A stretch of DNA of 64,000 nt from the NCBI RefSeq assembly GCF_009914755.1, contig NC_060936.1. One strand, 5' to 3'. Position 1 is the stretch's first letter. Each line of letters starts with the position of its first letter. This DNA comes from the human T2T-CHM13v2.0 reference genome, Homo sapiens. A program made the position numbers and the translations under genes. Positions 1,851 to 50,640 of the stretch are shown here, piece after piece. The notes below the pieces were generated by a model. That model saw only the letters and a program-made list of their open reading frames with translations. It was not told where the DNA came from and did not search any database.

Positions 1851-1884
1851 ATAGAGGAGTAGCTATTTTACAGGCTCTAAATAG

Positions 1885-5380: not shown

Positions 5381-5382
5381 TC

Positions 5383-6195: not shown

Positions 6196-6252
6196 TCCAC
6201 CTCCCAGTGCCCTCACTCTCCTTCTCTCTTTTCCTCTGCCCCTGCACAATAG

Positions 6253-14214: not shown

Positions 14215-15580
<1,366 letters not shown>

Positions 15581-15944: not shown

Positions 15945-16873
<929 letters not shown>

Positions 16874-17734: not shown

Positions 17735-19242
<1,508 letters not shown>

Positions 19243-19330
19243 GAGAGTTCTCTTTTCTTTGGGTAGGGCAAGGCAAACTGGAATGGATTCACCGGAGAGC
19301 TGTGCGCATGCCCTGGAAAGCATTCTGGTT
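19243..19330 (+). pseudogene. 28S rRNA pseudogene, internal fragment
   Basis: 'gagagttctcttttctttg...ctggaatggattcacc...gccctggaaagc' matches recalled mid-28S GAGAGTTCTCTTTTCTTTGTGAAGGGCAGGGCGCCCTGGAATGGGTTCGCC. Confidence 0.8.
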
Positions 19331-19797
19331 AGACCCATGTGAGACAGGTTAGTTTTATTGTGTGTTCCTCATGTGTTGCTGCCATGGTCATCCTGCTCAG
19401 TAGAAGAGGAACAACAGGTTCAGACATTTGGCCTATGTCCTTGGCTGAGGAGCCAATGGGGTAAAGCTACCATATGTAGGATTATGACTGAACGACTCTA
19501 AGTCAGAATCCCGCCCAGGAGGGATATGGCAGCTCCACGGACCTTTTGTTGGCCTCGGATAGGCGATCCTCGCCGTGCGCCGGGAACCGGGGTCTGGTGC
19601 AGACAGCCCTTCATCCTGGGAAACGCGCTGCTGCCAGAAAGGCGGTCACTCCCTGACCCATCACGTAATGTGTTTGTGGGGAACCTGATGCTAAGCTATT
19701 CGTAGACGCCCTGCTTCTGGGTCAGGGTTTTCTATGGAGCAGAGCAGCTCCCTCCCTGCCATCTATTGAAAATCAGATCTCCACACAAGGGTCTCTC
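19327..19797 (+). pseudogene. 28S rRNA pseudogene, 3'-terminal ~470 nt
   Basis: 'gtgagacaggttagtttt', decayed sarcin-ricin loop 'ctcagtagaagaggaac' (AGTACGAGAGGAAC in rRNA), 'ggattatgactgaacg', and 3' end 'atctattgaaa...acacaaggg'. Confidence 0.95.
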
Positions 19798-20332
19798 CAC
19801 CCGTGTGTGGGGGACCTGGTGATATGGCGTGTCCTTGTGTAATTCAACCTTTGACGTGTACTTTTCTTCCTCCCTCCTGTTGCCCCTGGGGACCTCGTTC
19901 CCTGGCCCGCTCATGCCCACCCGCCCCGGAGCTCCGGAACACACAGCGGGTGTCTCTCGCCAGAGCCCATCAGCGCCCGCTGTGCATTTGGGAGGCGCCC
20001 GTCCCCACCGGCGGGCTTTCCAAGATGCCACGCGGGGGATTGCCGAGGTAGGGGTGGCGCACCTGCTCGTAGTTCCACCTCTCCGATTCCACCTCCTCCC
20101 CACACCCCTCTGGGAACTCCTCCAGGGGCTGGGATCGGATTCATTGAGCCTGTTGAGAATGGCTGAGGCGTGGGTGTCGGAGGGTGTGCCCCTGAGGTTT
20201 CTGTCCCAGTAATGTTCACGCATGCCCGGTGGTGGCCTTTGGGGTCACTGCCCCTCTCCCCGCCCCAGGTGCGCGGGGCTGGGATATGAGCCAGTCACTG
20301 CCTTTGTGCCTTTCCTTCTCTCTCCGCTGCCG

Positions 20333-20343
20333 GGTTCAACCAG
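20333..20343 (+). terminator. Degenerate Sal box (TTF1 site) downstream of 28S
   Basis: GGTTCAACCAG, 9/11 match to GGGTCGACCAG, preceded by a pyrimidine tract ~540 nt after the 28S end. Confidence 0.5.
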
Positions 20344-23300
20344 CGGACAGTGGGGGAACGGCGGGCAGGTCGGTGGAGTTAGATGACAGTAAAGGTGGGC
20401 CGGCTCTGTGTGATAAGATTCCAACTGGGTCCGACCGCTTCCGTCCGCTGGCGCCGGGTCCCCCAGACGTCTGCGGCGAGCGTTGGAACTGACCATCAAC
20501 CTGGGATTTCTAAGGAATAACAGATAACTCTGGTCAGCAGCACTACCACTTTTGTCCACTAGATGTCGCTCCTTCACTACGTTGTTTCTTCCTCTCCAAT
20601 TGTTTCCACAGTATTTTCAGTTGCTCTTCATTTTGTTTTTATTTTTCCTTTTACTTTTCTTACTCCTCTTTCTACACACTGAAGTTGCTGTTGTTTTACG
20701 TTTACTTCCTTTTTTTTTTTGAGAAAAGTTGGCGTGTGAGAATGCGATCTCGGCTCATCGCAGCCTGGACCTTCCTGGGCTCCGTCAGGTGATCTTGCCA
20801 TCTCAGTCTTCCAAGTGGCTGAGACTGCAGGAATAGCTTGATTCTGGGATGTCGAAGCTGCAGTGAGCCATGATCACGCCACTGCCCTCCAGCCTGAGTG
20901 ACAGAGAAAGACCCTGTTTCAGAAAGTAAGAGAGACAGGTTAAAGAAATAACTCCTTGAAATTACTACAATTAATTGTGATCTAAATTACTTGTTATATT
21001 TTTCACTCCCACTAGTTTATTATTATTGTTGTTGTTATTATTTATTTGTATTATTGTTTGTTATAATTGTTATTGTTTTTATTATTTAGTTATTTAGAGA
21101 TGGAGTCTTGGTCTATCACCCAGACTGCAGTGCAGTGGCACGACCTTGGCTCACTGTAGCCTCATATTCCCGGGTTCAAGTTCGAGACCAACCTGGGCAA
21201 TATGGCATAACAACCGTGTCTACTAAAATCTATCACTGATACTCCCAGGGCCGTTGGATATGGCAGGTGCAAGTTCGGAGGCTGAGGCAGGCGGTTCGCT
21301 AAAGTTTGGGAGTTCGAGATGAGCCTGGGCAACAGGCTGCAGTGCATTTGCCTGACCAAGGCCCACCACAGCCTCTACCTCCCCAGCCCAAATGATGCTC
21401 CCACCTCAGGCTCCAAAGGAGCTGAAACTACAGGCGCCTGCCATCACGCCCGGCTAACTTTTTAATTTTTTCTTTTTGAAAGTAGAGACGTGGTCTCACT
21501 GTGTTGCCAGGGCTGGTCTCAAACTGCTGGGCTCAAGTGATTCTTCCACCTCAACCTCCCAAAGTGTTGGGATTATAGGTGTGAACCATGATGCGCTTCC
21601 CTCTTTTTCATTTCCTTTATTTTTCCTTTTTTCTTCCTCTTTCTTTCTTTTTCTTTCTTTCTTTTCTTTTTCTTTCTTCTCTCTCTCTTTTTCTTCCTCC
21701 CTTCTATCATTTCTCATTCTCTTTTTCTGTTTCTCTTTCTATTTTCTTCGTTATCTTTCTTCCCTTTACATCTCTGTCTCTTTTTCTTTACATTTTTTTT
21801 TAATCTTTTTTGCTGTCTGTCTTTTCTCAATTCGTTTCCTCCCATCCCTCCAACTGTCTGTCTTCGTGTGGATTCTGGAAGAGTCTCCTCATTCTGTATC
21901 CCCTGTGTATCACAAGCCTCTGAGACTTTTGCTTTGTTCTTTTCTCCTTGTTGCATAAAAGGCATTCACTCTTCTTTTATTTTGGTACTCTGTGGACGGT
22001 CGAGGGCTGGAAAGAAAAAAAACGGACCATGAATTTAATTGGTTTCACAAGAGACATGGGAGACCAAAGAACACACGATGAGTACTTTGCTAAATATCCT
22101 GTTTATTCTCCCAACCAGGCTCATAAAAGTACAGATGCATCCGGTGGGTTGAGAGATCTCTGTGTAGTCGTGACCCTGCAATTATACTTGACAGGAGCGG
22201 TGATGACAGACGGGTGGCACAGAAACCTGCCCTTCTTTGGTACCAATTGAGCATGGTGACAACATATTCAAAATGGCCCATGTCTCAACTTGATGGTCCT
22301 GTTTTTCTGCTCTGTTCTTTAGGAATGAGTGGAGCCTTCCCGTGCTCCGCCATTTCCTTGCATTTTTCTTTTTACATACATTCATTCACTTATTTATTTA
22401 TTAATTTATTTTAAATAGAGTCTCATTCTGTAGCCCAGGCTGTGGCGTGGTATCGGCTGGCTGCAATCTCTGCCTCCCTGGTTCCAGCGATTCTCCTGCC
22501 TCAGCCTCCCAAGTAGCTGGGATTACAGGCGTATGCCACCCTACTCAGCTAACTTTTGTTTTTTTAGTAGAGACAGAGTTTCACCATGTTGCCCAGGCTG
22601 GTGTTGAACTCCTGACCTTCAGGGATCTGTCTGCCCCAGCCCCCCAAAGTGCTGGGATAACAGGCGTGAGTCACTGCACCCGGCCTAAATTGCAATTTTT
22701 CAAAATAAATGTGTTTTTTGTTGTTGTTGTTGTTGTTGTTTAATAAATAGAGCATCACCTAGTAACCACTGTTATTGAAAGTCGAGGTGGCACTGAGGGA
22801 GGCCTGTCCAACTTCACAGAGCCTGGGACAACCACTTTCTCTATTTCCCCTCTGGAGGCCCCTCCCTCTCTCCTTCGCTGCCTAGGGAACCTCCATCCTG
22901 TCAGGGACCCTGTTGTTCTTTTATCCTCCTGTGTAAATGGTGTCTCGTTCAGTTGCCGAGGCGGTGGCATTGTCTCAGCTGGCTGCACTCTCTGCCTCCC
23001 TGGTTCAAGCAATTCTGCTGCCTCAGCCTCCCTATCAGCAGAAATTACCGGCACGTGCCACCCTATCTAGCTAACTTTTGTCTTTTTTAGTAGAGACAAG
23101 GCTTCACCATGTTGGCCAGGCTGATCTCCCAATCCTGATTTCGTGATCTTCCAGCCTCGGCCTCCCGAAGTGCTGGGATGACAGTCATGAGCCACTGTGC
23201 CAGGCCACCATCATTGGTTTTAACTGGGAATTCTAGATTTGAAGCACACATCATTCTATGCCACAGAATGACTTCTTTATCCTGCTGACTCAAGAAGCTG

Positions 23301-25481
23301 GGCCCCTTGTGATTCATTTCAAACCAAGAGTCACCTCATGTTTGGAAAACAGATCTGCTCCCAAGTTCAGTGGAGAGATGTGGCATGTAGGACAAGGGAC
23401 TGTTCCTTCTGATTTAGTCTCCACGGTGGGGTTTAGGGCTGGAGCTCAGTGCAGATTGTTGACTCCCTATACCTTGGGTTCCATTGTCCCCACCCTGGAA
23501 CATGGGCCTTTGCAGATCCCGGCCCTTCCTGGCCCTTAAGGCACTGTCAGAAACACCATCACGAGCTTGGATACCCCGAATGACTGTGGCTCACTCCTCT
23601 CTGGAAACATTTGAAATCTGTCCTCTACGCGTGGCCACCTAAAACCACAGGAGTGTGGGATACTTGGCCGCCATCCACCTCACTGCTTTCGGGAGAGAAT
23701 GCTGAAAGTCTCTTGCTGACTCTCTTGACTCGAGTTCTTCAAGGGCATGTGGTCAGGACATAGTGAGACCAGATGTATTAAGTCAGGCTGGGTGTGGTGG
23801 CTTACACCTGCAACCCCAACACTTTGGGAGGCCAAGGCGGTAGGATCGCTTGAGCCTGGGAGCTCAAGACCAGCCTTGGACAACACGGCCAAAACCTGAG
23901 GTGCATGCCTGTGGTCTCAGCTACTCAGGAGGCTAAAGTGGGAGAATCACCTAACCCTGGGGTGGTTGAGGCTGCAGTGAGCCGTGATGGTGTCACTGCA
24001 CTCCAGCCTGGGTGACAGACAGAGTGATACCCTGTAGCAAACAGACAGACAGACAAGAGCTATATTATGTCCTTCTCAGGGTAGGAAGCAAAAGTAACAG
24101 AATATGGTATTTAAGATTTTTTTAAATTTTAAATTTCAATCTATTTATTTATTAATTTTGACTCCATATTATGAAACCAGCTAATTTTTGTATTTTTGTA
24201 GAGACGAGGCTTCACCATGTTGCCAAGTATGGTCTTGATTGCCTGGGATCAAGGAATCCACCCGCCCTCAGGCTCCCAATGTTCGAGAATTAAAGGCGTG
24301 AGCCACTGCTCCTGACAGCATTGTTTTTTGTTTGTTTGTTTGTTTGTTTCTTTTTTTAATCTCTTGTCTTTCCAGGAGTTTCACGGCAGAGTGTTTGGCT
24401 GGCTTGTTTAAATTCATTCTAAATAGGAACTGAGGATATCAGCTTCTGGCCTCATGGACTCAGAGCTGATGAGTCCCAAAAACTCATAAAGTTTAAAATA
24501 AATAATTTTGTTGTACAGAAATACACGGATGCACCCAAAACACAGAAACAATTCTTTTAAAAGTTGTCTTAGTCCTGGTGGGTGTGCCAGTGATTCTTTT
24601 AGGTTTGGAGCTTGACTGAGAGAATTTCCAGTCGGTCTCTGGATGGAAGTTCCAGATGATCCGATGGGTGGGGACTTAGACTGTGTCCCCCCAGGGGCCC
24701 TGGTCTATTAGTTGTGGGGACTGCCTGGGAGAGCGTGGTGACCCACTGTACTGTGGGAGCCTCTACCCTTCCCCTCCCTTCTCCCCCTCCGGGTGATGCC
24801 AATTCATTCCAGGCTGAAACTCTCATTGGCAGACTTTGGGCATCACCTAGTGGCCACTGTTACTCTGAAAACTGAGGCCTCAAGGAAGAAGAAAGCTCAT
24901 GGTGCCTGTACACAGCCCAGGGCAACTGTGTCGTCTCCACTTCTCCTGCCGCCACCTCCAAGTTTCTCCCTCCCTTGTTTCCTAGGGAATCACCACCCTG
25001 ATGACTGGGTCTGATTCTTCTTTGATCAGTTAAAAAAATAAATAAATATGCCGGGAGTGGTGGCTCACACCTGTAATCCCAGCACTTTGGGAGGCAGAGG
25101 CGGGCAGATCACGAGGTCAGGAGTTCAAGTCCAGCCTGGCCAGTATGGTGAAAACGTATCTCTACTAAACATACAAAAAACTAGCCATGCATGGTGGTGC
25201 ACACCTGTAATCCCAGCTACTCAGGAGGCTGAGGCAGGAGAATTGCTTGAACCCAGTAGGTTAAGGTTGCAGTGAGCCAAGATAGTACCACTGCACTCCA
25301 ACCTGGGCAACAGAGTGAGACTCAGTCTCAAAAAAAAAAAAAAAAAGGGGGGGGGGGGAAGAGGCCAGGCGTAGTGGCTCACACCTGTAATCCTAGCACT
25401 TATGGAGGCTGATGTGGGCAAATCACCTGAGGTTGGGATTTCGAGACCAGCCTGACCAACACGGAGAAACTGTCTCTACTA

Positions 25482-25808
<327 letters not shown>

Positions 25809-25870
25809 TTACAGGTGTGAGCCACTGCACCCAGCTATGTGTACTTTCTATGTGTACTTTCTTTTTTTAA

Positions 25871-26032
<162 letters not shown>

Positions 26033-26136
26033 TGACTAATTTTTGTATTTTTAGTAGAGACAGGGTTTCGCTGTGGTCGCCAGGCTGGTCTCAAACTCCT
26101 GACCTCAAGTGATCCACCCGTCTCAGCCTCTCAAAG

Positions 26137-26721
26137 TGTGAGAAAGAATTTCTGGGTGCTAGATGAGTTGGTCTCTCCTTTGTGAGACACCCATGAGGAG
26201 TCATGGGCGGCCTCTGAGGAGAAAAGTCTCCTTATTGCCTTCATGTCTTTATGCCCTGAGAGCATAACAGCTCAGAGGCATTCCACAGGTTGTTAAGGGA
26301 GATACCACACTCCCTTGAAGCAGTGGAATATAATCGAACATGTTGGCTCCTCCTGAAATCCACTCCCATCCATTTCAGTCCCGATAAGTTAAATATCTTA
26401 AGTAGTTTAGACACACACCTTTGCTCAAGGAAATTCACAAAAACCGCCACTCCTACACATCTTATTGCATGACTCACGAGTTCTCTTTCACTGATTAATC
26501 CTTTTCCTCATCCCTTTCTACCCCTCCCATCTGCCCTAAGAACAAACAGCTTGTAAGCCAATGAATTCAGTGGAGCCCGAGAGCTCTGGGCCGTGAGCAA
26601 GCCTCCGATGCTCCTGTCCCCTGGACCCGCCACTTTAACACTTATTTTGTCTCTTTCCAACTCCTTTGTCTCTGCCGGACTCGGGGTACCCACTGGCTGG
26701 TGCAAGGCTGGTTTCCCCACA
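26137..26721 (+). mobile_element. Solo HERV-K LTR (LTR14B-like) inserted in an antisense Alu
   Basis: TG...CA ends, ~585 bp, TSD CAAAG (26132-26136/26722-26726) interrupting Alu 'caaagtgctg'. Family from recall. Confidence 0.75.
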
Positions 26722-27486
26722 CAAAGTGCTGAGGTTACACGCATGAGCCACTGCGCCCAGCTATGTGTAATTTCATAACTCAGCTCATTTCTTGACTGGG
26801 TACCATGGGCATTTGGGCCACTTTCTCATGGAACTTACTTGTGCTTCAGGATCTGTTCAGACCCAATCAGGTCCACAGCACTTCCGTGTCATGCTGGAGT
26901 GCTGCTGTGCACACCCACTTATGCCCAGTGTGTGATGAGTGGCTCAGCTCACATGGTAACTTCGTGGCCCCACGGTTGGGCATTTGGTTTCTACTAACAG
27001 CCAGAGGCTAGCTGAGAGAGCCTGTCGCTCAAAAGAAGAATGGTTATCTGCAGATAATGGCAGGGCCTTGCTCCGAAATCCTCAAGACCTCCTCTGTGAT
27101 TTGGAATAGCCTATGTCTCAAATGGATGGTCCTGTTTTTCTGCTCTGGTCTTCAGGAACAAGTGGAACCTTCCCATGCTCTGCCACCTCCTTGCATCTTT
27201 TTATATTCATCTATTCATTTATTCATGTATTTTTTAGAGACGGGGTCTTCCTGTGTCGCTGAGGCTGGAGTGCAGTGGTAGGATCATAGCTGGCTGCAAC
27301 CTTGAACTGCTGGGCTCAAAGCGATCTTCCTCCGCCTCAGCCTCCCAAGTAGCTGGGCCTACAGGCAAGGGTGTGAGCCACAAAACAGCACAACGCCTGG
27401 CTAATTATCTTCATTATTATTATTATTGTTTTCTTGCTTCTTTTCTGAGACAAAGTCTCCCTCTGTCACCTGGGCTGGAGTGTAAT

Positions 27487-27917
<431 letters not shown>

Positions 27918-28056
27918 TGACCAGGCTGGTTTGGAACTCTTGACCTCAGGTGGTCTGCCCACCTTGGCCTCCCAAAGTGCTGGGGTGATGGGTGTGGGCC
28001 ACCACTCCCAGCCACTTCTTTTGTTACTAGAAATGGGCTCTCTCACTATCATAGTA

Positions 28057-28569
28057 TGTTGGAACCTAGCCCCCCCAAATCTGGCCATAAACAGTCCCCA
28101 AAACTGGCCATAAACAAAATCTCTGCAGCATTGTGACATGTATGTAATGGCCCTATTGCCCAAGCTGGAAGGTTGTGGGTTTACGTGAATGAGGGCAATG
28201 AACACCTGGCCCACCCAGGGCAGAAAACCGCTTAAAGGCAATCTTAAGCCACAAACAATAGCATGAGCAATCTGTGTCTTAAGGGCGTGTTCCTGCTGCA
28301 GTTAAGTAGCCCAACCTATTCATTTAATTTGGCCCATCCCTTTGTTTCCCATAAGGGATACTTTTACTTAATTTAATATCTATAGAAACAATGCTAATGA
28401 CTGGTTTGCTGTTAATAAATATGTGGGTAAATCTCTGTTCGGAGCTCTTAGCTCTGAAGGCTGTGAGACCCCTGATTTCCCACTTCATACCTCTATATTT
28501 CTGTGTGTGTGTCTTTAATTCCTGTAGCGCCACTGGGTTAGGGTCTCCCCAGCCGAGCTGGTCTCGGCA
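28057..28569 (+). mobile_element. Solo MER9 LTR (HERV-K9/HML-3)
   Basis: TGTTGG...CTGGTCTCGGCA, repeated 'ctggccataaac', AATAAA; perfect 6-bp TSD ATAGTA (28051-28056/28570-28575). Confidence 0.9.
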
Positions 28570-31500: not shown

Positions 31501-31672
31501 GTGGTCCGAGAGGTGACACCTGGCCAGGCTTTGGTCCCTCATGTGATCTGGTCATGTGAGGGACTGGCCAAAAATGACTCTGAGTCTCGCTCTGGAGAAA
31601 CGGGCCAGACCCTGCATTGCACAGGTGGCCAGGAGGGTGTCCCTGGCCCTCTGCTGCTCCTGTGTGTGTCCT

Positions 31673-31685
31673 GGGGTTGACCAGA
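31673..31685 (+). terminator. T0 promoter-proximal Sal box (TTF1 site)
   Basis: GGGGTTGACCAGA ~176 nt upstream of the +1 homologue, identical to the recalled human T0. Confidence 0.85.
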
Positions 31686-31689
31686 GGGC

Positions 31690-31866: not shown

Positions 31867-33190
31867 GATTAGATTGGGCCTCTAGATGCATGTGAAGCTC
31901 TAGTATACTGGCAACCCAGCTAACAGGCCCTGCTCCAGCTTGAGCTGATTGCTGGGACCCGTGTGCTTGCTCTCACACATCCTAGTGTCATAACTGTCAG
32001 TGGTGCCCTGGGTCTCTGGGCCTTTGACCCTGGCAGGGAAGGCAGCAGGCAGCTTGGGCTCCCCGACCTGTGTGCTTCCCCACTGCGGGCACAAGAGGTG
32101 GTCAGAACAACCCCACCCTGTTGGCTCTGTGCTGTGCACATCAGGCATTCTCTTCCTTAAATTGTCTGCTGTCCCTATCCTAGAGTGAGGCTGGCTTTGC
32201 TGTTATGCCCATCAGGTTCATCAAGACTGACCCCCACTCAACCACCGCCTCGCTATGGGGCTTTTCATGATATATGTGGTGACATCACGCTCTCCTGGGC
32301 CGGGACTAAGCCAGGAGGAGCAAATAATGGAAATTCATGGTGAATGAAACCGTTCTTCTCGTTCTGCTCGTGAGGCCCCTCGTCTCTCCTCCCTGCCTCC
32401 TGGGAGGCATGGGGCAGGGAATTTGGCATGACCTCGCTGCCCTCACACCTTGTGCCTTGGCTTCTAGAAGATTGATGGAGTCTTCTGACACAGCAGGCAC
32501 CTTTGCTCTGGCTTCCTGTGGTTGTTGCCTTGGGGGTGGACAGGGCACCTCTCCCGGGCCATAGGGGACTGTCCCTACAAAACATTTCTGGGATGCGAAA
32601 GGGTTGGCACCACCTGGGCCTTTGTGGTGATCCAGTAGTGCTCCAGATTGCTACCACGTGCCCGAGACAAAACAGTGGTGGGTTGTGCCAACCCCAAGTG
32701 CCCTCTCCTACAACCAACACTACGGTGTTTGCAAGTGCGTCCTGAAGAGGTCGTTGGGTGGGGCGAGGCGGATGAGTGAGGCAGGCCCCTCCCACTCGAT
32801 AAGAGATGCCGCCTTGTCTGTCAAGTGTATGTCCCATGCTCCACTCTGCCAAGTGCGCACAAGACTTGGGAGCGATTGTGGTAAGATTCTGTGTACCATC
32901 GTGGTGTGTGGGCCTTGGGGAGGCCTTTTGCCCCAGAGAGAAGGGCGGATAAACAGAGGGACTTTGGGGGTGAGTACATGCATGCCAGGCAACGGCCCTG
33001 ATAGAAAGTACTCAAAATTTGCCACAGGCTTTTGGTCGTAAGGCAGACGACTTTCTTCGTCAGGCGGCCATGAGCGAATCTTCAGGCACAACGAGGGGCA
33101 ACTGGCGGGGAAGGAGTGTGACAAAAACTCGGTGAGAAAGCCTTCTTTAGTAATACGAAAGGTGAGCCAATGGGGTACAAAATACCCCAG
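31849..33190 (+). pseudogene. 45S pre-rRNA 5'ETS pseudogene, truncated just after the A0 region
   Basis: CpG-decayed colinear match to 5'ETS; A'/01 motif 'gatatatgtggtgac' at ~+420 (GATCGATGTGGTGAC in human); 'ctcggtgagaaagccttct' at ~33128. No 18S follows. Confidence 0.88.
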
Positions 33191-33272
33191 TCCAAGGTAT
33201 CTGTTTATAATAATGATTCCGTTGATGTGCATAAGCAGAGTTCCCTACTTTTACCATAAATAAGGACAGAAG

Positions 33273-36200: not shown

Positions 36201-39200
36201 GACGTTGAGGCAGCACTGGAAAAAAGCAGTGGGCCAGGATCCTCCCACGGATGACAGTGTTTTCCCGGCAGCCCCTGAGCCAGGCCCTGGAGGGTCGTGG
36301 AGTCTCTGGCTTGCACCAAGGGTGCGTGTGAAGCCCACGGGGGACACCCCAAAGCGGCAAGAAGGCCTCCGGGGATAGGGAACAGGACGCCAGGCTTGAA
36401 ACAGGACGTTGAGGCAGCACAGGGAAAAAAGCGGAAGGCCGGAGTCCCCCCCACGGATGACAGTGCCTTCCAGGCAGCCACTGCGCCATGCCCGGGGGGC
36501 TTGTGCAGTCCCTGACTCCCACCCAGGCTGCGTGTCGCACCCACAGGGGTCACCCTAAAGCGGCAAGAAGGCCCCAGGGGGAAGGGAACAGGACGCCAGG
36601 CTTGAAAGGGGACTTTGAGGTAGTCCGGGGAAAAACTTCCCACGGAGGACAGTGTTTTCCCCGTAGCCCCTGCGCCAGACCCGGGAGAGCCATGCAGCCC
36701 ATGGCTTTCACCCAGGGGGCGTATCGCTCCCATGAGGGACACCCCAAAGCAGCAAGAAGGCCTCCGGGGGAAGGGAACATGACGCCACGATTGAAATGTG
36801 AAGTTGAGGCAGCACGGGGAAAAAAGCAGCAGGCCAGGGTAGTCCCACGGATGACAGTGCCTTCCCGGCAGCCGCTGCGCCTGTCCTGGGAGGGTCGTGG
36901 ATTCTCTGGCTTGCACCCAGGGTGGCATCGCGCCCACTGGAGGCACCCAAAGGGGAAAGAAGGCCCCAGAGGGAAGGGAACAAGACGCCAGGCTTGAAAG
37001 GGGACATTGAGGTAGCACGAGGAAAAAACTGATGGGTTGGTGTCCTCCCACGGATGACAGTCACTTCCCGGCAGCTTCTGCGCCGGAACCAGAGGGGTCG
37101 TGGGTCCCTGGCTTGCACCCAGGGTGCGTGTCTCGCCCACAGGGGGCACCCCAAAGTGGCAAGAAGGCCCCCAAAGGATGGAGACAGCACATCTGGCTTG
37201 AAGGTGGATGTTGAGATAGCCCGGGAAAAAAGCGGTGAAGCTGTGTTCCTCCCATGGACAACAATGCCTTCCCTGCAGCCCCTGCGCCGGGCCCGGGGGA
37301 GTTGTGGAGTCCCTGTCTTATACCAGGGTAGGTTTCTCGCCCATGGCGGGGGCGCATCCCAAAGCGGAAAGAAGGCCCCCGGGGAAGGGGAACAGGACGC
37401 TAGGGTTTAAATGAGATGTTGAGGCTGCCCGGGGGAAAAGCGGCGGGCCAGGGTAGTTCCACGGATGACAGTGCCTTCCTGGCAGCCCCTGCGCCTGGCC
37501 CGGGGGCGGGGGGGGGTGGTCGTGGCGTCCCTGGCTTGCAGGCAGGGTGTGCGTTTCGCCCACAGGGGCTCCCCAAAGGGGAAAGAAGGCACCCGAGGGA
37601 AAGGGACCGCACATCAGGCTTTAAGGGAGAGGTTGAGGCAGCATGGGATAAAAGCGGCGAGGCTGGGGTTCTCCCATGGATGACAGTCCCTTCCCGGCAG
37701 CCCCTGCGCCGGGCACTGGGGTGTCGTGGAGTCCCTGGCTTGCACCTAGGGTGCGCGTGTAGCCCACAGGGAACAACCCAAAGCGGCAAGAAGGCTTCTG
37801 GTGGTAGATAACAGGACGCCAGGCTTGAAAGTAGACGTTGAGGCAGTACTGGGAAAAAAGCGGCGGGCCAGGGTCCTCCTACCGACGACAGTATCTTGTA
37901 GGCAGCCCCTGCACTGTTCCCGGGGGGGTTTGTGGAGGCCCTGGCTTGCACCCAGGGTTTGTGTTGCGCCCACGTGTGGCACCTTTAAGAGGCAAGAAGG
38001 CCCCCGGTGGAAGGGAACAGACGCCAGGCTTGAAAGGGGACGTAGAGGAAGTCCGGAAAAAAAACTTCCCAGAGAGTACAGTGGCTCCCCGACAGGCCCT
38101 GCGCCGGGTCTAGGGAGGTCGTGGAATCCCTGGCTTGCACCTAGGGTGTGTGTCGCGCCCATGGGGGGCACCCCAAAGCGACAAGAAGACGCCGGGGGAA
38201 GGGAACAGGACTCCAGGCTTGAAAGCGGATGTTGAGGCAGCACAGGGAAAAAAGCGGCAGGCCAGGGTCTTCCCACGGATGACAGTGCCTCCCGGCAGCC
38301 CCTGCGCCTGTCCCGGGGGGGTCGTGGAGTCCCTGGCTTGCACCCAGGGTGCGTGTCTCTCCCACGGGGGGCACAACAAACTCGCAAGAAGGCCTTAGGG
38401 GGAAGGGAAGCAGACGCGTCTTGAAAAAAGACGTTGAGGCAGTCTGGGGAAAAACTTCCCAGGAGGCACAGTGCCTTCCCGACAGCCCCTGCGCTGGGCC
38501 CGGTGGGGTCGTGAAGTCGCTGGATTGCACCCAGGGTGCGTGTCGCCCCCACGGCGGGCACCCCAAAGCGTCAAGAATGACCCCACGGGAAGGGGAAAGC
38601 ATGTCGGTCTTAAAGAGGGACGTTGAGGCAGCCCGGAGAAAAAAACAGGGAGGCTGGGGTCCTTCCACCGATGACAGTGCCTTCCCGGCATCCCATGTGC
38701 CATCTCCGGGCGGGTCGTGGAGTCCCTGGCTTTCACCCAGGGTGCGTGTATCTCCCATTGGGCCACCCCAAAGTGGCAAGAAGTCCCCCAGGGGAAGGAA
38801 ACAGGGTGTTAGGCTTAAAAGGGGACATTGAGGCAGCACGGGGAATAAGGCTGTGGGTTGAAGTCCTTCTAACAATGACGCTGCCTTCCTGGCAGCCTCT
38901 ACGCCCTGCCCAATAGGGTTGTGGAGTCGCTTGCTTGCACCCAGGGTGCGTGTCGCACCCCAGGGGGCACCCCAAAGCGCCAAGAAGGCCTCCGGGGGAA
39001 GGGAGTAGAACGCCAGGCGTGAAAGGTGACGTTGAGGCAGCACGAGGGAAAAAGCAGCAGGCAGCGATCGTCACACGGACGACAGTGCCTTCCCGGCAGC
39101 CCCTGCGCCAGACTCGGGGTTGTCGTGGAGTTCCTGACTTGAACCCAGGGTGCGTGTCGCGCCCACGGGGGGACACCCCAAAGCGGCAAGAATGCCCCCT

Positions 39201-42200
39201 GGGAAGGGAACAGGACGCCAGGCTTGAAAGGGGACTTTGAAGCAGTCCAGGAAAAAACTTCCCACGGACCACGGTGCCTTCCCGGCAGCCCCTTTGCCAG
39301 GCCCGAGGGGGTTGTTGTGTCCCAGGCTTGCACCCAGGGTTCCACGGGGGGCACCCCAAAGCGGCAAGTAGGTTCCCAGGGGAAGGGGACAGCACGTCAG
39401 GCTTGGAGGGGGACGTTGAGGCAGCCCCGGGAATAAAGAGGGGATGCTGGGGTCCTGCCACGGATAACACTGTCTTCCCGACAGCATCTGTGGTGGGCCT
39501 GGGAGCGTCATGGAGTCCTTGGCTTGCACCCAAGGTGCGTGTCTCGCCCTCGGGGGGCACCACAAAGCGGCAAGAAGGCCACCGGGGGAAGGGTATGGGA
39601 CGCCAGGGTTGAAAGGGATAGTTGAGGCAGTCCGGGGAAAAACGTGGCAGGCTGGGGTCGTCCCATGGACGACAGTGCCTTCCCAGCAGCCCCTGCGTCA
39701 GGCCCGGGGTGGTCGTGGAGTCCCTGGCTTGCACCGAGGGTGCGGGTCGCACCCATGGGGGCACCCCAAAGTGGCAAGAAGGCCGCCGGGCGAACGCCAC
39801 AGAAGGCCAGGCTTTAATGGGGATGCTGAGGCAGCACAGAGAGAAAAGCGGCTAGTCGGGTTCCTCCTACGGATGACAGTGCCTTCCTGGCAGTCCCTGC
39901 GCTGGGCCCGGGGGGATCGTGGAGTCCCTATCTTGCACCCAGGGTGCGTGTTTCGCCCATGGGAGAGCACCCCAAAGCGGCAAGTAGGCCCCTGGGGGAA
40001 GGGGACAGCACCTCAGACTTGAAGGGGGACTTTGAGGTAGCCCGTGGAAAAAAACGGCGACGCTGAGTTTCTCCCACAAACGACAGTGCCTTCCTGGCAG
40101 CCCCTTCGCTGGGCCAGGGTGGTCCTGGAGTCCGTGGCTTGCACCCAGGGTGCGTGTCTCGCTCACGGGGGCACCCCAAAGCGGCAAGTAGATTCCCGGG
40201 GGGAAGGGAGAGCACGTCAGGCTTGAAGGGGAGGTTGAGGCGGCCCCGGGGTAAAAGTGGTGAAGCTGGGGTCCTCCCACGGATGACACCGCCTTCCTGG
40301 CAGCCTCTGCAGTGGGCCCAGAGGTGTCGTGGAGTCTCTGGCTTGCTCCCAGGTTGTGTGTCTCGCCCACGAGTGGCACCACAAAGCAGCAAGAAGGCCC
40401 CCAGGGGAAGGGTACAGGACTCCAGGGTTGAAAGGTAGAGTTGAGGCAGACCGGTGTCATCCCAAGGACAACAGTGTCTTGTCCGGTAGCCCCTGCATCG
40501 GGCCTGGGGTGGTTGTGGAGTCCCTGGCTTGCACCCGGGGTGCGTGTCGTGCCCACGATGGGCACCGCAATGCGGTAAGAAGTCCCCGAGTGGAAGGGAA
40601 CAGGACGCCGAGCTTGAAAGGGGACGTTGAGGCAGTCCGGGGAAAAAATTTCCACTGAGAACAGTGCCTTCCCGGCAGCCTCTGAGTGGGACCCAGGTGG
40701 ACGGTGGAGCCCCTGGCTTGGACCCAGGGTGCCTGTCTTGCTCACGGGGTGCACGTGAAAGTGGCAACAGGGCCCCCGGGGGAAGGGGACAACATGTCAG
40801 GCTTGAAGAGGGACGTTGGGCCAGCCAGAGGAAAACAGCGGCTAGGCTGTGGTCGTCCCACAGACCACAGTGCCTTCCCGGCAGCCCCTGAGCCTGGCCC
40901 AGGCGGGGGGGTTTGGAGTCCCTGTCTTGCACAGAGTGCGTGTCTCGCCTAAGTGTGCACGCGAAAGCTGCAAGAAGGGCTCCGGGGGAAGGGAACAGGA
41001 TGCCAGGCTTGAAAGGGGACTTTGAGGCAGTCCAGGGAAAAACTTTCCACGGAGGACAGTGACTTCCCGACATCCCCTGCGCCTGGCCCTGGGGGTCTTG
41101 GAGTCCCTGGTTTACACCCAGGGTGCGTGCCTCGCCCACGGGTGGCACCCCAAAGCAGCAAGAAAGCCCCGGGGGGGAAAGAACAGGATGCCAGACTTGA
41201 AAGGGGACGTTGAGGCAGCCCAGGAAAAAAAGGGGCGAGGCTGGGGTCCTTTCACGGATGACAGTGCCTTCCCTACAGCCCCTATGCCAGTCCCGGGAGG
41301 GTCGCGGAGTCCCTGTCTTGCACACAATGTGCGTGTCTCGCCCACGGGGGGCACCCCAAAGTGGCAAGAAGTCCCCCGCGGGAAGGCAACAGGACGCCAG
41401 GCTTGAATGGGGACGTTTAGGTAGCCTGGAGAAAAAAGCAGCGAGGCTGGGGTGATCCCACGAATGACAGTGCCTTACCGGCAGCCCCTTTGCCGGGCAT
41501 GCGGGGGTTGTTGATTCCCTGGCTTGCACCCAGGGTGAGTGTCTTGCCCACGGCGGGCACCACAAAGCAGCAAGAAGGTTCCCGGGGGAAAGGGACAGCA
41601 CGTCAGTCTTGAAGGGGGAAGTTGAGGCAGCCCCGGGGAAAAAAGCGGGGATGCTGGGGTCCTCTCACGGACGACACTGCCTTCCCAGCAGCCTCTGCAG
41701 TGGGCCCGGGAGCGTCCTGGAGTCCCTGTCTTGCACCCCGGGTGCGTGTCTCACCCACGGGGAGCACCACAAAGCGGCAAGAAGGCCACTGGGGGAAGGG
41801 TACAGGACGCCAGGGTTGAAGGGGATAGTGGAGGCAGTCCAAGGAAAAAAGTGGCGGGATGGTGTCGTCCCAAGGATGGCCACCCCTGCGCCGGGCCAGG
41901 GATGGTCGCGGAGTCCCTGGCTTGCACCCAGGTTGTGTGTCTCGCCCACAGGGGGCACCCCAAAGCAGCACGAAGGCCTCCAGGGGAAGGGAACAGGACG
42001 CCAGGCTTGGAAAGTGACGTTGAGGCAGCAGGGGGTAAAAAGTGGCGGGCCGGGCCCTCCCACGGATGACAGTGCCTTCCCGGAAGCCGCTGCGCAGGGC
42101 CCGGCGTGTTTGTGGAGTCTCTGGCTTGCACCCAGAATCGTGCGGCGCCCACGACGGGCACCCCAAAGCGGCAAGATATCCCCCGCTGGAAGGGAACAGG

Positions 42201-42602
42201 ATGCCAGGCTTGAAAGGAGAAGTTGAGCCAGTCCGGGGAAAAAAATCCCATGGAGAACAGTGTCTTCCCGGCAGTCTCTTTGCCGGGTTCGGTCGTGGAG
42301 TCCCTGGCTTGCACCCAGAGTGCGTGTCTTTAAAGCGGGGCATCCTGTTACCATTCTCCGGGGGAATTCTTGCCGCCATGGGGTGCCCCCTGAGGGCGAG
42401 ACACGCACCCTGTGTGCAAGACAGGGACTCCACGACCCCCCCAACCACGAGTCTGCCGCAGGGGCTGCCGGGAAGGCACTGTCCTCCCTGGGAAGTTTTT
42501 CCACAGACTGCCTCAACAACCCCTTTAAAGCCAGGCATCCTGTTCCCATCGCCCAGTGCCCCCGTGGGCGAGACAAGCACCCTGGGTGCAAGTCAGAGAA
42601 TC
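33273..42602 (+). repeat. GC-rich tandem array, ~46 monomers of ~188-218 bp (gamma-satellite GSAT/GSATII-like)
   Basis: Recurring 'ccctggcttgcacccagggtgcgtgtc...gggcaccccaaagcggcaagaag...gcttgaaaggggacgttgaggcag...gacagtgccttcccggcagcccctg'. The tandem structure is certain; the family name is from recall. Confidence 0.85.
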
Positions 42603-43126
42603 CTCGCCTGTGGCCTGGGTCTCTCTTGTCCTTGGGACGGGAGTTTACACGAAGTCGGTGGCAATGGGAATCTGGGTTCACAAGGACGTTTTCCTGGTAG
42701 CTGGCAAAGGCAATGTCCTTCCCTGGAAAAAGCAGCCCATGGGTTCTGGAGGGGGTCTTGGCTGGCGTCTGTGGGACCCTCTACCCCTGCCTGCAACTTC
42801 CCCAGGTTTGGACGTTTGCAGCGGCACCAGATGAGTGAATTGAATTACCTGGGCTTTCCTGGAGCAGGAAGACAACCAGGATGGCAGGGAACCTGTGCCT
42901 GCGCCTTTGGGGTCTGGTCCTGGCCTGCCCCGCCCTGCCTAGAGTTGGGGACCTGGTGGAGCTGCAGCAAGGCGGAAGAGGTGGGATGCTGCTGCCTGGC
43001 GGTGCTGCAGCGGTGGACCCCCACGAGGAGGTCCTGGGGTGCGGTAGGGAAAAGGGGTAGCAGAGTCAGGGGGTGGTTGGGAAGCAGGGCGACAAAAGGG
43101 AGAAAGACGGAGGGAGCGGGAAGCCA

Positions 43127-43245
43127 AAAGCCTACAGCACCCGGTATTCCCAGGCGGTCTCCCTTCCAAGCACTGAACCAGGCCCCACCCTGCTTAGCTT
43201 CACAGACCAGAAGAAATTAGGCATCTTCAGGGCACTGCCATAGAC
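43127..43245 (-). pseudogene. 5S rRNA pseudogene copy 1
   Basis: Reverse complement GTCTATGGC...GAAGCTAAGCAGGGTGGGGCCTGGTT...GGGAGACCGCCTGGGAATACCGGGTGCTGTAGGCTTTT; 5' half diverged. Confidence 0.95.
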
Positions 43246-44002
43246 ACAGGCAGTGATACCTAGCTGACACAAGAACCTGGCTCAGCCATGCCCGCCCGAC
43301 TCCAGGCGTCACTGCCACTCCAGGGCCGCAGGGCTCGGATTGGGATACCCCTGAGCCACTCGCCTGCTGCTGGGCTGCTCTCCCACTCCATGCCGGAGCA
43401 CTGTAGGCTGCCGCGCTGCGCCTTCCGCCGGCCTCCAAGAGCCTCCCGCCATCACAGGCAAGGCCACGCACTGGACCACCGCGGCGCCGCCCTGCTGTTG
43501 AGTGGGGAAGCCAGAGGTTTCCATCCCCTGCCCAGACTTCGGGTTCTCTGGGCAGCCTCCATTCCTCCGACGCTCCAGGGCTTCCCCAGGCTACTGAGCT
43601 CCCAAGCTTCCACCACATCGGACCTGTTCAGGACAGTTTGTGCTCCCAGGCGTCAGGGCCCTGGGCCCACGGTCCTGGGATACCCTCCTGTCCTCCTCCT
43701 TGCCGCAGAGGGATTATTTTTGTTCCCTCGCCGCCCCTCCTGCAAGGCCCCCTCTTGCCTCACCCACCCAGAGCTGCTAGGGCTGCTCAGGGCTGAACCG
43801 CCGGCCTAGCCCCAGGGACCCTTTCTCTCACAACGTCCCTAACAGCGTCGCTTGTCCCGACAAGGACGTGACCCACGGCCAAATGAGTTGGGGGAGCTGC
43901 TTTGCCCCGCGCTGCCACTAGAGCTGGCCGACTGATCCCGGGAGAGAGAGGCTGATGGACAGCCAGACACACCTCACCAGCACCACGAGCAAACCCACCC
44001 CT

Positions 44003-44250
44003 ACACCCACAGACACACATGGGTGCACGCGCGTGGGCACACAGACACACACACACACAGATACACAAAGATACAGATAGACACCTTGAAGGAGAGCAAG
44101 GGAAAGAGGGATGGAGAGATAGAAACTGAGGGAGAGAGACAGCGATAAAGAGAGAGACAGGGAGGAAAGAGAGAGAGAAGGTGACAGAGAGATGGAGGGG
44201 GAAGAAGAGAAACAGAGAGAGGGTGAGAGAGCTAGAGAGCCAGAGCGATA
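44003..44250. repeat. (CA)n and (GA)n microsatellites of the 5S spacer
   Basis: Direct inspection. Confidence 0.9.
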
Positions 44251-45055
44251 GAGCCTGGGAGAGGAAGCGCTCTGCTCTGGTAGACAGGGCTCATTCAAGC
44301 AGGCTGGGGTAGGGTGGAGGGTGATTGAGCCAGGCCAGAACAGGGGGTCAGGGCCCTGTTCTGCAAGAGGACCAACAGAACTCTGAGACGTATTTTTTCA
44401 TAGATTGGTTGGTTGCTTTGGGGGTGCGTTTCATAGGGTCCTCCTTTTGTTGGCTACTCCCTGTCTTCTTGGTGTGGTGGGCCCCGAGATTTGTAGAGTG
44501 CGTCCGTCCGTGTGGTGGGAGCCATGGCATGGAGCGTGCTGACGGGGCCCGAGGCCTGGGTCTCTCTCGTGTCCTCGGGACTGGAGTTTACACGAAGTCG
44601 GTGGCAATAGGAATTGGGGTGCACAGGGACAGATTTCCTCGTGACTGGTGACGGCAGTGTCCTTCCCCTGGGGAAAGCAGCTCATAGGTCCTGGAGCAGT
44701 GGTTTTGGCTGCCGTCTGTGGGACCCTCTGCCCCTGGCCGCCACTTCCCCTGGCTTGAGCTGTTGCATGGAGCCTGATGAGTAAATTGAATTGCCTGGGC
44801 GTCCCGGGAGCGTGAAGACACCGGGCACCTTAGGGAACATGTACCGCCCCCGCCCCGGCTGGAGCTGGGCACCTGGTGGGGCTGCAGCAAGGCGGAAGAT
44901 GTGGGATCCTGTTGCCTGGTGGTGCTGCAGCGGTGGACTCCCACGAGGAGGTCCCAGGCTGCTTCGGGGCTGCAGGTGACGGTAAAAGCGGGAGCAGAAT
45001 TAGGGGAAGGTCGTGAAGCACGGCGACAAAAGGTGGAAAGAGGGAGGGCGAAGCC

Positions 45056-45170
45056 AAACCCTACAGCACCCAGCATTCCCAGGCGGCCTCCCATCCGAGT
45101 ACTAACCAGGACCGACCCTGCTTAACTTCCGAGGTCAGATGAGATCGGGCAGGGTGATATGGCTGTAGGC
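45056..45170 (-). pseudogene. 5S rRNA pseudogene copy 2 (6-nt deletion near +21)
   Basis: Reverse complement GCCTACAGCCATATCACCCT-GCCCGATCTCATCTGACCTCGGAAGTTAAGCAGGGTCGG...GGATGGGAGGCCGCCTGGGAATGCTGGGTGCTGTAGGGTTT. Confidence 0.95.
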
Positions 45171-45190
45171 GCTGGCAGTGGCGCCTGGAT

Positions 45191-45202
45191 GCCGCAAGAG
45201 CC
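45191..45202 (-). promoter_or_regulatory. 5S D-box at -32..-21
   Basis: GGCTCTTGCGGC, one mismatch to mammalian D-box GGCTCTTGGGGC, at exactly the canonical spacing. Confidence 0.8.
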
Positions 45203-45599
45203 CGGCACTGCCACGCCCGCCGGACTCCAGGCATCATCGCCACCCCGGGGCTGCGGGGCTTGGATCCGGGATCCCCGAGCCGGCCGAGCTGCTCTCTCCC
45301 TCTATTCCCCCGAGCACTGCTGGCCACCACTCTGTGCCTTCCTCCTGCCTCCCAGAGCCTCCCTCCGTCGCCGGCTGCCGGGCCACGCGCAGGACCGCCA
45401 TGGTGCCGCCCTGCTGTTGCTCTGGGGCGCCAGAGGCCTCCGTCCCCTGCCCAGGCTTAGGGGTCTACGGGCGATCTCCCTTCTGGCGATGCTCCAGGCC
45501 TTCACCCGGCTCCCGAGCTTCCACAACATCAGGCCCGCTCAGGACGGGTGTGCTCATCCCTTCACTTTTTAACTTTTTGTTGTTTCTATTTATATTTTT

Positions 45600-48680: not shown

Positions 48681-48689
48681 CACCCAAGA

Positions 48690-50640
<1,951 letters not shown>

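What the first reader, a model, noticed from the sequence alone, without database searches (positions are those of the whole stretch)
19243..45565. Composite relic: 45S rDNA Pol I promoter -> gamma-like satellite <- tandem 5S rDNA
Seen: within 26 kb, a 45S unit boundary (28S, IGS, promoter, 5'ETS on +) is joined to a 9.3 kb GC-rich satellite, which is joined to two 5S repeat units on -. The Pol I and Pol III units therefore converge on the satellite. Known: human 45S (acrocentric NORs) and 5S (1q42) arrays are unlinked, and gamma satellite has been reported to act as an anti-silencing barrier. Both rDNA pieces keep non-transcribed spacer, so they are DNA-level copies, not retrocopies. Inference: this is either a fossil of an ancestral primate locus where 45S and 5S were adjacent, or a pericentromeric sink that captured both arrays near the nucleolus.
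Basis: partly seen in the sequence, partly recalled or inferred. Interest (0 to 1): 0.85.

Follow-up and report, generated by a model that had tools for sequence, protein, structure and literature searches.

The report
Multi-copy pericentromeric rDNA–satellite–5S duplication block
This stretch beside the chromosome 12 centromere is a dead patchwork of copied DNA (a piece from the edge of a ribosomal gene array, a gamma-type satellite and two decayed 5S gene units) that was later copied as one block to other chromosomes, so it is an ordinary pericentromeric duplication and not a fossil of linked ribosomal genes.

Summary
On the + strand there is a 28S 3' end (19329-19803), spacer, a Pol I promoter (pRNA match 31713-31801) and about 1.4 kb of 5'ETS. 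A 9.3 kb GC-rich satellite of about 204 bp period follows (33279-42606). Two 5S units lie on the - strand (genes at 43129-43245 and 45058-45170).

The composite is not unique. Both junctions recur on chr21 and twice on Y, partly on 12p, and the rDNA/satellite junction recurs on chr8. Window-to-chr21 non-CpG divergence is uniform across all components (0.067-0.085), including a left flank copied from chr2:38.70 Mb, so the mosaic spread as one block.

The rDNA piece shares an Alu, a truncated 28S and derived indels with a relic just distal of every active rDNA array. It therefore comes from a NOR-edge-like source, not an internal unit. The 5S units belong to the dispersed 5S-composite monomer family already described by the T2T repeat study.

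Everything is decayed: the 5S genes are 97 and 100 of 119 identical to the active gene, and promoter CpG o/e is 0.35 against 1.01. My reading is a non-functional pericentromeric duplicon mosaic. Ancestral 45S-5S linkage is not supported. Primate orthologues could not be examined.

The parts
1..19061 (+). Left-flank duplicon copied from chr2:38.70 Mb. It is interrupted at 4512-11797 by a later HERV-K-like provirus.
   Evidence: C2:38702665-38720929 (-) matches window 1-19061 in collinear pieces at 80-90%, ending at 19061. Non-CpG K2P is 0.077-0.085. The same flank is present in the chr21, Y, 12p and chr8 copies.
19061..19244 (-). Antisense Alu at the left edge of the rDNA-derived duplicon, shared with the relic at the distal junction (DJ) of the rDNA arrays.
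   Evidence: homology to the DJ relic (L036 from position 736) begins at 19061. The target-site duplication GAGTTCTC flanks this Alu only in the DJ copy.
19329..19803 (+). Truncated 28S rRNA 3' end (pseudogene).
   Evidence: Rfam LSU 112 bits. Raw identity to active 28S is 83.5% over aligned bases. Insertions and deletions are shared with the DJ relic and the paralogues.
19804..22657 (+). Old proximal spacer. It matches the DJ relic but not the start of the modern active IGS. It overlaps exons of lncRNA LOC107984469 (hub table).
   Evidence: L036 2364-4546 matches 20448-22657 at 80%; the active IGS start shows no match beyond simple repeats and Alus.
23263..31110 (+). Distal IGS, collinear with the last ~7.4 kb of the active spacer and padded by Alus and other insertions (for example 28057-28573, absent from chr21).
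   Evidence: L040 2560-8788 matches 23263-31114 in ordered pieces at 67-81%. One search shows the chr21 gap at 28057-28573.
31110..33204 (+). Decayed Pol I promoter (pRNA 31713-31801; TSS equivalent near 31850) and the first ~1.4 kb of 5'ETS.
   Evidence: Rfam pRNA 75.6 bits against 83.7 for the active copy. The promoter alignment has 228 of 312 identical columns. CpG o/e is 0.35 against 1.01 in the active unit.
33205..33278 (.). Short AT-rich filler at the 5'ETS/satellite junction (junction A).
   Evidence: Sequence printed. The same junction is present in the chr21, Y (two copies) and chr8 copies.
33279..42606 (+). Gamma-type GC-rich satellite, about 204-206 bp period, 9.3 kb. The terminal part, about 42327-42606, is inverted.
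   Evidence: TRF. GC 0.625 and CpG o/e 0.53. It is 64-70% identical to the pericentromeric chr8 and chrX arrays. The inverted tail is shown.
42607..45330 (-). Two tandem 5S rDNA units with spacer (pseudogenes RNA5SP358 at 43129-43245 and RNA5SP359 at 45058-45170). Gene spacing is 1929 bp, and the Alu of the active unit is absent.
   Evidence: Rfam. BLAST to the active chr1 unit L031. The genes are 97 of 119 and 100 of 119 identical to the active gene, with 3- and 6-nt deletions.
45331..49400 (.). Continuation of the dispersed 5S-associated duplicon, shared with about 29 pericentromeric, acrocentric and subtelomeric loci.
   Evidence: 81-90% matches on chr 3, 4, 9, 12p, 13, 14, 15, 20, 21, 22 and Y.

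Best explanation
The region is a non-functional pericentromeric mosaic of duplicated segments (duplicons). A gamma-type satellite is flanked on one side by a copy of an ancient distal edge of a nucleolar organiser: Alu, last ~0.5 kb of 28S, a short old spacer, promoter, and the first 1.4 kb of 5'ETS. On the other side it is flanked by two units lifted from an old 5S array. A segment copied from chr2:38.70 Mb adjoins the rDNA piece at an Alu. Once assembled, the mosaic was copied as a block between pericentromeres (12q, 21q, 12p, Y, and the rDNA-satellite part on 8q). Since then every part has decayed at about the same neutral rate. Shown: the anatomy, the paralogous junctions, the uniform divergence and the decay. 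Inferred: the order of assembly, the NOR-edge source and the absolute dates.
For: Junction A (5'ETS/satellite) recurs at C21 (88%, full length), at C24 twice (85-86%) and at C8 (70%), with 38 of 63 candidates scored. Junction B (satellite/5S) recurs full-length at C21 (87%) and C24 twice (83%). That is 3 loci among 39 of 225 candidates scored; the other loci match only the 5S half. The chr21 copy is collinear with window 1-44431. Non-CpG K2P of window against chr21 is 0.083 (chr2-derived flank), 0.080 (28S and proximal spacer), 0.079 (distal IGS), 0.085 (promoter and 5'ETS) and 0.067 (5S). Against Y it is 0.092, 0.111 and 0.095. The flank against its chr2 source is 0.077-0.085. Source of the rDNA piece: the DJ relic and all the pericentromeric copies I aligned share the antisense Alu next to a truncated 28S, and they share indels absent from active 28S. 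An 8-bp target-site duplication brackets that Alu only in the DJ copy. Decay: 5S scores are 53.8 and 77.8 bits against 110.1 for the active gene, both genes carry deletions, and GC and CpG have fallen. In print: dispersed 5S-composite monomers lacking the AluY sit at 49 sites enriched in centromere transition regions (bioRxiv 10.1101/2021.07.12.451456, passages read). Centromere-associated rDNA relics are described in PMC5381670 (passages and section 21 read).
Against: No non-human primate assembly could be searched, so ages and the order of events rest on paralogue distances alone. The genome searches score only the best ~40 candidates, so copy counts are lower bounds and absences are weak. 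The chr8 copy is unevenly diverged (0.108 against 0.182), and its lack of 5S could be a later loss. The relic tree is nearly star-like (internal supports 81-89) and is rooted on a long, compositionally odd outgroup. The direction DJ-like source -> pericentromere rests mainly on one 8-bp target-site duplication. Raw identities of 80-92% fall partly below the formal 90% segmental-duplication threshold. An annotated lncRNA and a RefSeq 'silencer' overlap the relic spacer (hub table), so some transcription or regulatory activity is not excluded.
Confidence: 0.85

Rival explanations
1. Fossil of an ancestral primate locus where a 45S array and a 5S array lay side by side.
For: Both pieces are DNA-level copies with spacer. 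Their non-CpG distances to the active arrays are of the same order: 0.11-0.26 for the 45S parts and 0.165 for the 5S part. The unit A to unit B distance (0.184) is close to the window to DJ-relic distance (0.173).
Against: The blocks occur unlinked. chr8 has the rDNA piece and the satellite but no 5S within 10 kb beyond the array end. The DJ relic has no satellite or 5S within 13 kb. About 29 loci carry the 5S duplicon, and only chr21 and the two Y copies carry the full junction B. The rDNA piece has NOR-edge hallmarks. Only 1.5-2 5S units and a partial 45S unit are present, and each ends at an abrupt junction.
Confidence: 0.03
2. A selected chromatin boundary module: gamma satellite acts as an anti-silencing barrier, kept together with flanking Pol I and Pol III promoter relics.
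For: The same three-part arrangement is retained on 12q, 21q and Y. Satellite CpG o/e (0.53) is higher than in the flanks (0.19-0.26). A barrier role for gamma satellite is reported in the literature as cited by PMC8125562 (passage read). An lncRNA and a silencer are annotated in the relic spacer (hub table).
Against: Divergence of all components equals that of the chr2-derived flank, as expected for neutral decay. Array length varies: 9.3 kb here, about 2.9 kb on chr21, about 6.9 kb on Y and at least 16.8 kb on chr8 (my estimates from the coordinates). Monomers are only ~70% alike. The CTCF consensus gives 1 match in the window against 0.62 expected, and that match is outside the satellite. 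The promoters are decayed.
Confidence: 0.07
3. The rDNA relic marks a former NOR on an ancestor of chromosome 12 (or 8 or 21q), that is, an in situ remnant and not a transposed copy.
For: The piece resembles an array edge. A preprint argues that acrocentric-type satellites in non-acrocentric pericentromeres can be relics of acrocentric ancestry (10.64898/2025.12.22.696095, passages read).
Against: All the copies examined (12q, 21q, Y, 8q, 12p) carry a chr2-derived duplicon abutting the Alu instead of the DJ-side context, so at most one could be in situ. Only one partial unit is present. The relic tree is a near-simultaneous burst.
Confidence: 0.04
4. Assembly artefact joining unrelated repeats.
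For: Pericentromeric repeats are hard to assemble.
Against: The same junctions exist in several diverged copies (8-18% apart) on other chromosomes of the assembly. RefSeq annotates both 5S pseudogenes here (hub table).
Confidence: 0.01

Closest known systems
Pericentromeric segmental-duplication mosaics (two-step model: seeding of duplicons, then block exchange between pericentromeres; model recalled, no paper read here)
   Same: Segments of distinct origin are juxtaposed (chr2:38.70 Mb, NOR edge, 5S array), with Alu or satellite at the borders. Whole blocks with identical junctions sit on non-homologous pericentromeres.
   Different: This block is older and more diverged (raw identity 80-92%) than typical annotated duplications. 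Two of its duplicons come from the two ribosomal gene arrays.
Dispersed 5SRNA_Comp monomers (T2T repeat study, bioRxiv 10.1101/2021.07.12.451456)
   Same: 5S gene plus spacer copies that lack the AluY of the chr1 array and are enriched in centromere transition regions. The window's units and their right-hand continuation match about 29 such loci.
   Different: Here 1.5-2 tandem units abut a gamma satellite. That junction is seen only in the 12q, 21q and Y copies (12p has only the 5S side). The LTR2 reported at the Alu site could not be tested, and the alignments to the active unit are flush at that site.
Centromere-associated degraded rDNA units (Robicheau et al. 2017, PMC5381670)
   Same: A degraded 45S and IGS fragment near a centromere on a chromosome without an rDNA array.
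   Different: This fragment is a paralogue of a highly diverged relic in the distal junction, not of an internal unit. That relic is not described in the parts of the paper I read.
Gamma satellite (GSAT / GSATX / GSATII)
   Same: A GC-rich, roughly 200-220 bp, diverged pericentromeric array of 2-10 kb scale, with homology to the chr8 and X arrays.
   Different: The period here is about 204-206 bp. The subfamily could not be assigned because no repeat library was on hand.

Membership tests
Pericentromeric segmental-duplication mosaic | Juxtaposed segments with different ancestral loci | tested here: met
   chr2:38.70 Mb flank, NOR-edge relic, 5S array units.
Pericentromeric segmental-duplication mosaic | The same junctions in paralogous copies on other chromosomes | tested here: met
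   Junctions A and B on chr21 and on Y (two copies); junction A on chr8.
Pericentromeric segmental-duplication mosaic | At least 90% identity over at least 1 kb (formal definition, recalled) | tested here: inconclusive
   BLAST identities counting gaps are 80-92% depending on segment. Identity over aligned bases is 89-91% for window against chr21.
Gamma satellite | GC-rich tandem monomer of about 220 bp in pericentromeric clusters | tested here: met
   Period 204-206 bp, GC 0.625, 9.3 kb. The period is somewhat shorter than the quoted 220 bp.
Gamma satellite | Sequence homology to the described chr8 and chrX arrays | tested here: met
   64-70% identity to arrays at C8:46.39-46.41 Mb and C23:57.56-57.59 Mb. 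That these are the published arrays is inferred from their position.
Gamma satellite | Subfamily (GSATII) by match to the library consensus | not testable with these tools
   No Repbase or Dfam library available.
5S rDNA unit / 5SRNA_Comp monomer | 5S gene plus spacer homologous to the chr1 array, lacking the AluY | tested here: met
   Rfam. L031 alignments are flush across the Alu site, and gene spacing is 1929 bp against about 2240 bp in the active array.
5S rDNA unit / 5SRNA_Comp monomer | LTR2 at the site of the AluY | not testable with these tools
   No TE library. No insertion is seen at that site in either unit.
Functional 5S rRNA gene | Intact 5S sequence and structure | tested here: not met
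   53.8 and 77.8 bits against 110.1 for the active gene. 97 of 119 and 100 of 119 positions identical, with 3- and 6-nt deletions.
45S rDNA repeat unit | 18S, 5.8S and 28S with ETS/ITS, IGS and promoter | tested here: not met
   Only the 28S 3' end, a shortened IGS, the promoter and 1.4 kb of 5'ETS are present. Rfam finds no SSU or 5.8S.
Linked (L-type) 45S-5S rDNA arrangement | A 5S gene inside the spacer of each tandem 45S unit | tested here: not met
   The 5S units lie beyond a 9.3 kb satellite, downstream of a broken 5'ETS. There is no tandem repetition of the composite.

The most novel reading that the evidence does not exclude
The 45S piece is a molecular fossil of an ancient distal boundary of a nucleolar organiser, and it preserves a short (~10-12 kb) anthropoid-era spacer. 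The gamma-satellite blocks of 8q (where the satellite was first described), 12q, 21q and Y all descend from a single seed array that abutted the broken first unit of that boundary. On this reading, this gamma-satellite lineage began at a NOR edge and was carried to pericentromeres by block duplication.
Probability: 0.3. Interest if true: 0.5.

Novelty: new member of a known kind. Interest (0 to 1): 0.3.

Why it matters
The result turns an apparently striking 45S-satellite-5S 'relic' into a documented case of ordinary pericentromeric duplication, so it should not be read as evidence for ancestral linkage of the two ribosomal gene families. There are two modest by-products. First, several gamma-satellite blocks, including the one on chr8, share one rDNA junction and are therefore paralogous. 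Second, a diverged 28S-and-spacer relic at the distal junction of every human rDNA array has pericentromeric paralogues. Together these preserve an older version of the rDNA spacer that could help reconstruct how the NOR boundary and the IGS evolved.

Tried and rejected
1. I tested whether the satellite derives from rDNA or 5S sequence. BLAST of 33205-42606 against the active 5'ETS, IGS, 28S end and 5S unit that I held gave 0 hits at E<=1e-3.

2. I tested for satellite or 5S beside the DJ relic. None was found in 13 kb.

3. I tested for 5S at the far end of the chr8 array. None was found in 10 kb.

4. A CTCF consensus scan (motif recalled from memory) showed no enrichment: 1 match against 0.62 expected.

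5. I tested for 28S homology upstream of the edge Alu in the DJ. None was found.

I used smaller requests instead, so the paralogues are only partly held. The Y, chr8 and 12p copies were mapped from search coordinates and short loci, not from full alignments.

8. Kim et al. 2009 on gamma satellite was not held. It is known to me only through PMC8125562.

9. Literature searches for this exact composite found no description. Supplements of the T2T repeat preprint (for example Fig. S9 on 5S monomers) were not seen, and they may list this locus.


Full report
**Observation**

The window is human chr12:38,068,001-38,132,000 of T2T-CHM13 (hub note), on the q side of the centromere.

Rfam at gathering thresholds finds exactly four RNA-family matches:
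- the last ~400 nt of LSU rRNA at 19374-19794 (+)
- the rDNA promoter RNA (pRNA) at 31713-31801 (+)
- 5S rRNA at 43129-43245 (-)
- 5S rRNA at 45058-45170 (-)

TRF finds a 204-206 bp tandem array over 33705-42244 with 69-71% matches, in a block of 62-65% GC.

I aligned the window to active units taken from the same assembly: a chr1 5S array unit (L031), chr13, chr14 and chr15 rDNA pieces (L032, L033, L037) and a whole chr15 spacer (L038-L040). This gives the following layout:
- 28S at 19329-19803
- distal spacer at 23263-31114, in ordered pieces
- promoter and 5'ETS at 31110-33204
- 5S-unit homology from 42607 to about 45330

The satellite fills 33279-42606, and its last ~280 bp are inverted. 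The presence of non-transcribed spacer confirms DNA-level copying.

**The locus is not unique**

Searching the window's own assembly with 1 kb across each junction gave these results.
- Junction A (5'ETS/satellite) recurs on chr21 (88% over the full query), twice on Y in mirror orientation (85-86%) and on chr8 (70%) (38 of 63 candidates scored).
- Junction B (satellite/5S) recurs full-length on chr21 (87%) and on both Y copies (83%). On 12p only the 5S side matches (88%). All other loci, including the active chr1 array (78%), match only the 5S half (39 of 225 candidates scored).

The chr21 copy (C21:12413675-12441375, minus strand) is collinear with window 1-44431.

The Y copies cover window 1-2457, 17691-22243, 30665-35229 and 41389-49400. 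Their coordinates are mirror-symmetric, as for palindrome arms (my inference from the coordinates).

A 12p copy (C12:34079239-34114345, minus strand) lies inverted on the other side of the centromere. It appears to lack the promoter and 5'ETS part.

The chr8 copy holds window 17888-22317 and 31316-35136, including junction A. It has no 5S homology in the 10 kb beyond the far end of its satellite.

**Flanks**

Window 1-19061 is a copy of chr2:38,702,665-38,720,929 at 80-90% identity, ending exactly at 19061. A 7.3 kb insertion at 4512-11797 interrupts it.

To the right, 45200-49400 matches about 29 pericentromeric, acrocentric or subtelomeric loci at 81-90%.

This is consistent with the T2T repeat study. 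In the passages I read (bioRxiv 10.1101/2021.07.12.451456), it reports monomers of the '5SRNA_Comp' at 49 locations on 13 chromosomes, enriched in centromere transition regions and lacking the AluY of the chr1 array. In the window the two 5S genes are 1929 bp apart, against about 2240 bp in the active array. The alignments are flush across the Alu site.

**One block, neutral decay**

The table gives non-CpG K2P distances from the window to its paralogues.

| Component | vs chr21 | vs Y | vs chr8 | vs 12p |
|---|---|---|---|---|
| chr2-derived flank | 0.083 | not measured | not measured | not measured |
| 28S plus proximal spacer | 0.080 | 0.092 | 0.108 | not measured |
| distal IGS | 0.079 | not measured | not measured | not measured |
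| promoter and 5'ETS | 0.085 | 0.111 | 0.182 | not measured |
| 5S units | 0.067 | 0.095 | absent | 0.096 |

The flank against its chr2 source is 0.077-0.085, and chr21 against chr2 is 0.087. Seeding from chr2 and the spread of the block were therefore close in time. All components, including plain chr2-derived DNA, have drifted equally, which is what neutrality predicts.

On recalled primate calibrations, about 0.04 per lineage at non-CpG sites suggests roughly 30-45 Myr. I could not check this against other primates.

Distances to the active arrays are larger:

| Comparison | Non-CpG K2P |
|---|---|
| window 28S vs active 28S | 0.113 |
| window distal IGS vs active IGS (two stretches) | 0.150 and 0.260 |
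| window promoter and 5'ETS vs active | 0.227 |
| window 5S units vs active 5S units | 0.165 |
| window 5S unit A vs unit B | 0.184 |

**Source of the rDNA piece**

Window 19061-22657 (Alu, truncated 28S, 2.9 kb of spacer) has no counterpart at the start of the modern spacer. It does match, at 75-80%, a relic lying about 9 kb upstream of the first promoter of every rDNA array (C13, C14, C15, C21, C22). That relic's 28S is itself only 74.7% identical to active 28S, gaps counted. The modern spacer resumes about 3 kb before the first unit.

In a multiple alignment, the DJ relic and the window, chr21, chr8 and Y copies share the antisense Alu directly 5' of the truncated 28S. They also share several insertions and deletions that active 28S lacks. 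The Alu is bracketed by an exact 8-bp direct repeat (GAGTTCTC) only in the DJ copy. Nothing upstream of it there resembles 28S. The pericentromeric copies have the chr2-derived flank in that place instead.

I infer that the family descends from a DJ-like array edge, with its left breakpoint at the Alu tail. The window also keeps spacer homologous to the last 7.4 kb of the modern IGS. The copied structure was therefore edge, short old spacer, and start of the first unit.

A maximum-likelihood tree groups the DJ relic with a chr15:14.81 Mb copy (100/100). It places the five pericentromeric copies in a nearly star-like cluster with chr8 branching first, and supports are only 81-89.

**5S side**

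A tree of an ~800 bp stretch (5S gene plus adjacent spacer) gives three well-supported clades:
- a unit-A clade (12q, 21q, Y, 12p; 100/100)
- a unit-B clade (12q, Y; 100/100)
- a clade of dispersed monomers (4q, 14, 15; 100/99)

All are about equally far from the active array. The two tandem units were already diverged when the block spread.

**Decay**

- 5S: the genes score 53.8 and 77.8 bits against 110.1 for the active gene. They are 97 of 119 and 100 of 119 identical, with 3- and 6-nt deletions.
- Promoter: it is recognisable (228 of 312 identical columns). The promoter and 5'ETS block has fallen from GC 0.76 and CpG o/e 1.01 to 0.57 and 0.35.
- Satellite origin: the satellite has no detectable homology to the active rDNA or 5S sequence I held (0 hits).
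- CTCF: a CTCF consensus is not enriched.

**Interpretation**

This is a pericentromeric duplicon mosaic of the kind long described for human centromere transition regions. Its unusual feature is that two of its duplicons come from the two ribosomal gene families.

Centromere-associated rDNA relics are in print (PMC5381670; passages and section 21 read). So are dispersed 5S monomers and gamma satellite as a pericentromeric family (PMC8125562, passages).

I found no paper describing this composite or the DJ relic's paralogy. Supplements that I could not see may list the locus.

The convergent Pol I and Pol III geometry is real. It joins two dead relics, and I see no evidence that it does anything.

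Ancestral 45S-5S linkage is not supported. The components occur unlinked in paralogues, and each ends at an abrupt duplication junction.

What remains open is cross-species dating, and whether this gamma-satellite lineage started at a NOR edge.

Noticed in passing
window 4512-11797: A 7.3 kb endogenous betaretrovirus-like provirus (Pfam Gag_p10, rve, HERV-K_env_2, GP41 on fragmented ORFs). It is about 91% identical to many dispersed copies. It is absent from the chr21 paralogue, so it inserted after the block was duplicated. Observed only.
   Followed up: partly
L036 (C15:2499501-2509500), positions 736-4546; also C13, C14, C21, C22: Every acrocentric distal junction carries, about 9 kb upstream of the first rDNA promoter, a highly diverged relic made of an Alu, the last ~0.5 kb of 28S (74.7% identical to active 28S, gaps counted) and ~3 kb of old spacer. 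The modern spacer resumes at about L036 6944 (93% identity).
   Followed up: partly
C12:34079239-34114345 (12p) versus the window (12q): A second, inverted copy of the same mosaic lies on the p side of the chr12 centromere, so the two copies bracket the centromere as an inverted pair. The 12p copy seems to lack the promoter and 5'ETS part, and it has ~4.8 kb of unexplained sequence between its short satellite and its 5S unit.
   Followed up: partly
C24:18459724-18501556 (-) and C24:19217488-19259313 (+): The two Y copies give identical scores and have mirror-symmetric coordinates about ~18.86 Mb, as expected for the arms of a Y palindrome (my inference).
   Followed up: no
window 28057-28573 and 20536-23330: A 516 bp dispersed repeat (91-92% identical to many loci) is present here but not in the chr21 copy. 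A 2.8 kb stretch of relic spacer is also missing from chr21.
   Followed up: no
window 33055-33188: This 5'ETS stretch also matches (76-79%) loci on chr2:132.69 Mb, chr20:29.96 and 30.93 Mb, and several acrocentric short arms. These are probably the other degraded rDNA units reported near the vestigial chr2 centromere and on chr20 by Robicheau et al.
   Followed up: no
C12:37998149-38000511, C12:34153652-34156037, C24:19161516-19163280: Further partial copies (78-80%) of the relic spacer segment 22990-25347 lie about 70 kb upstream of the window, on 12p and on Y. They are separate from the main block copies.
   Followed up: no
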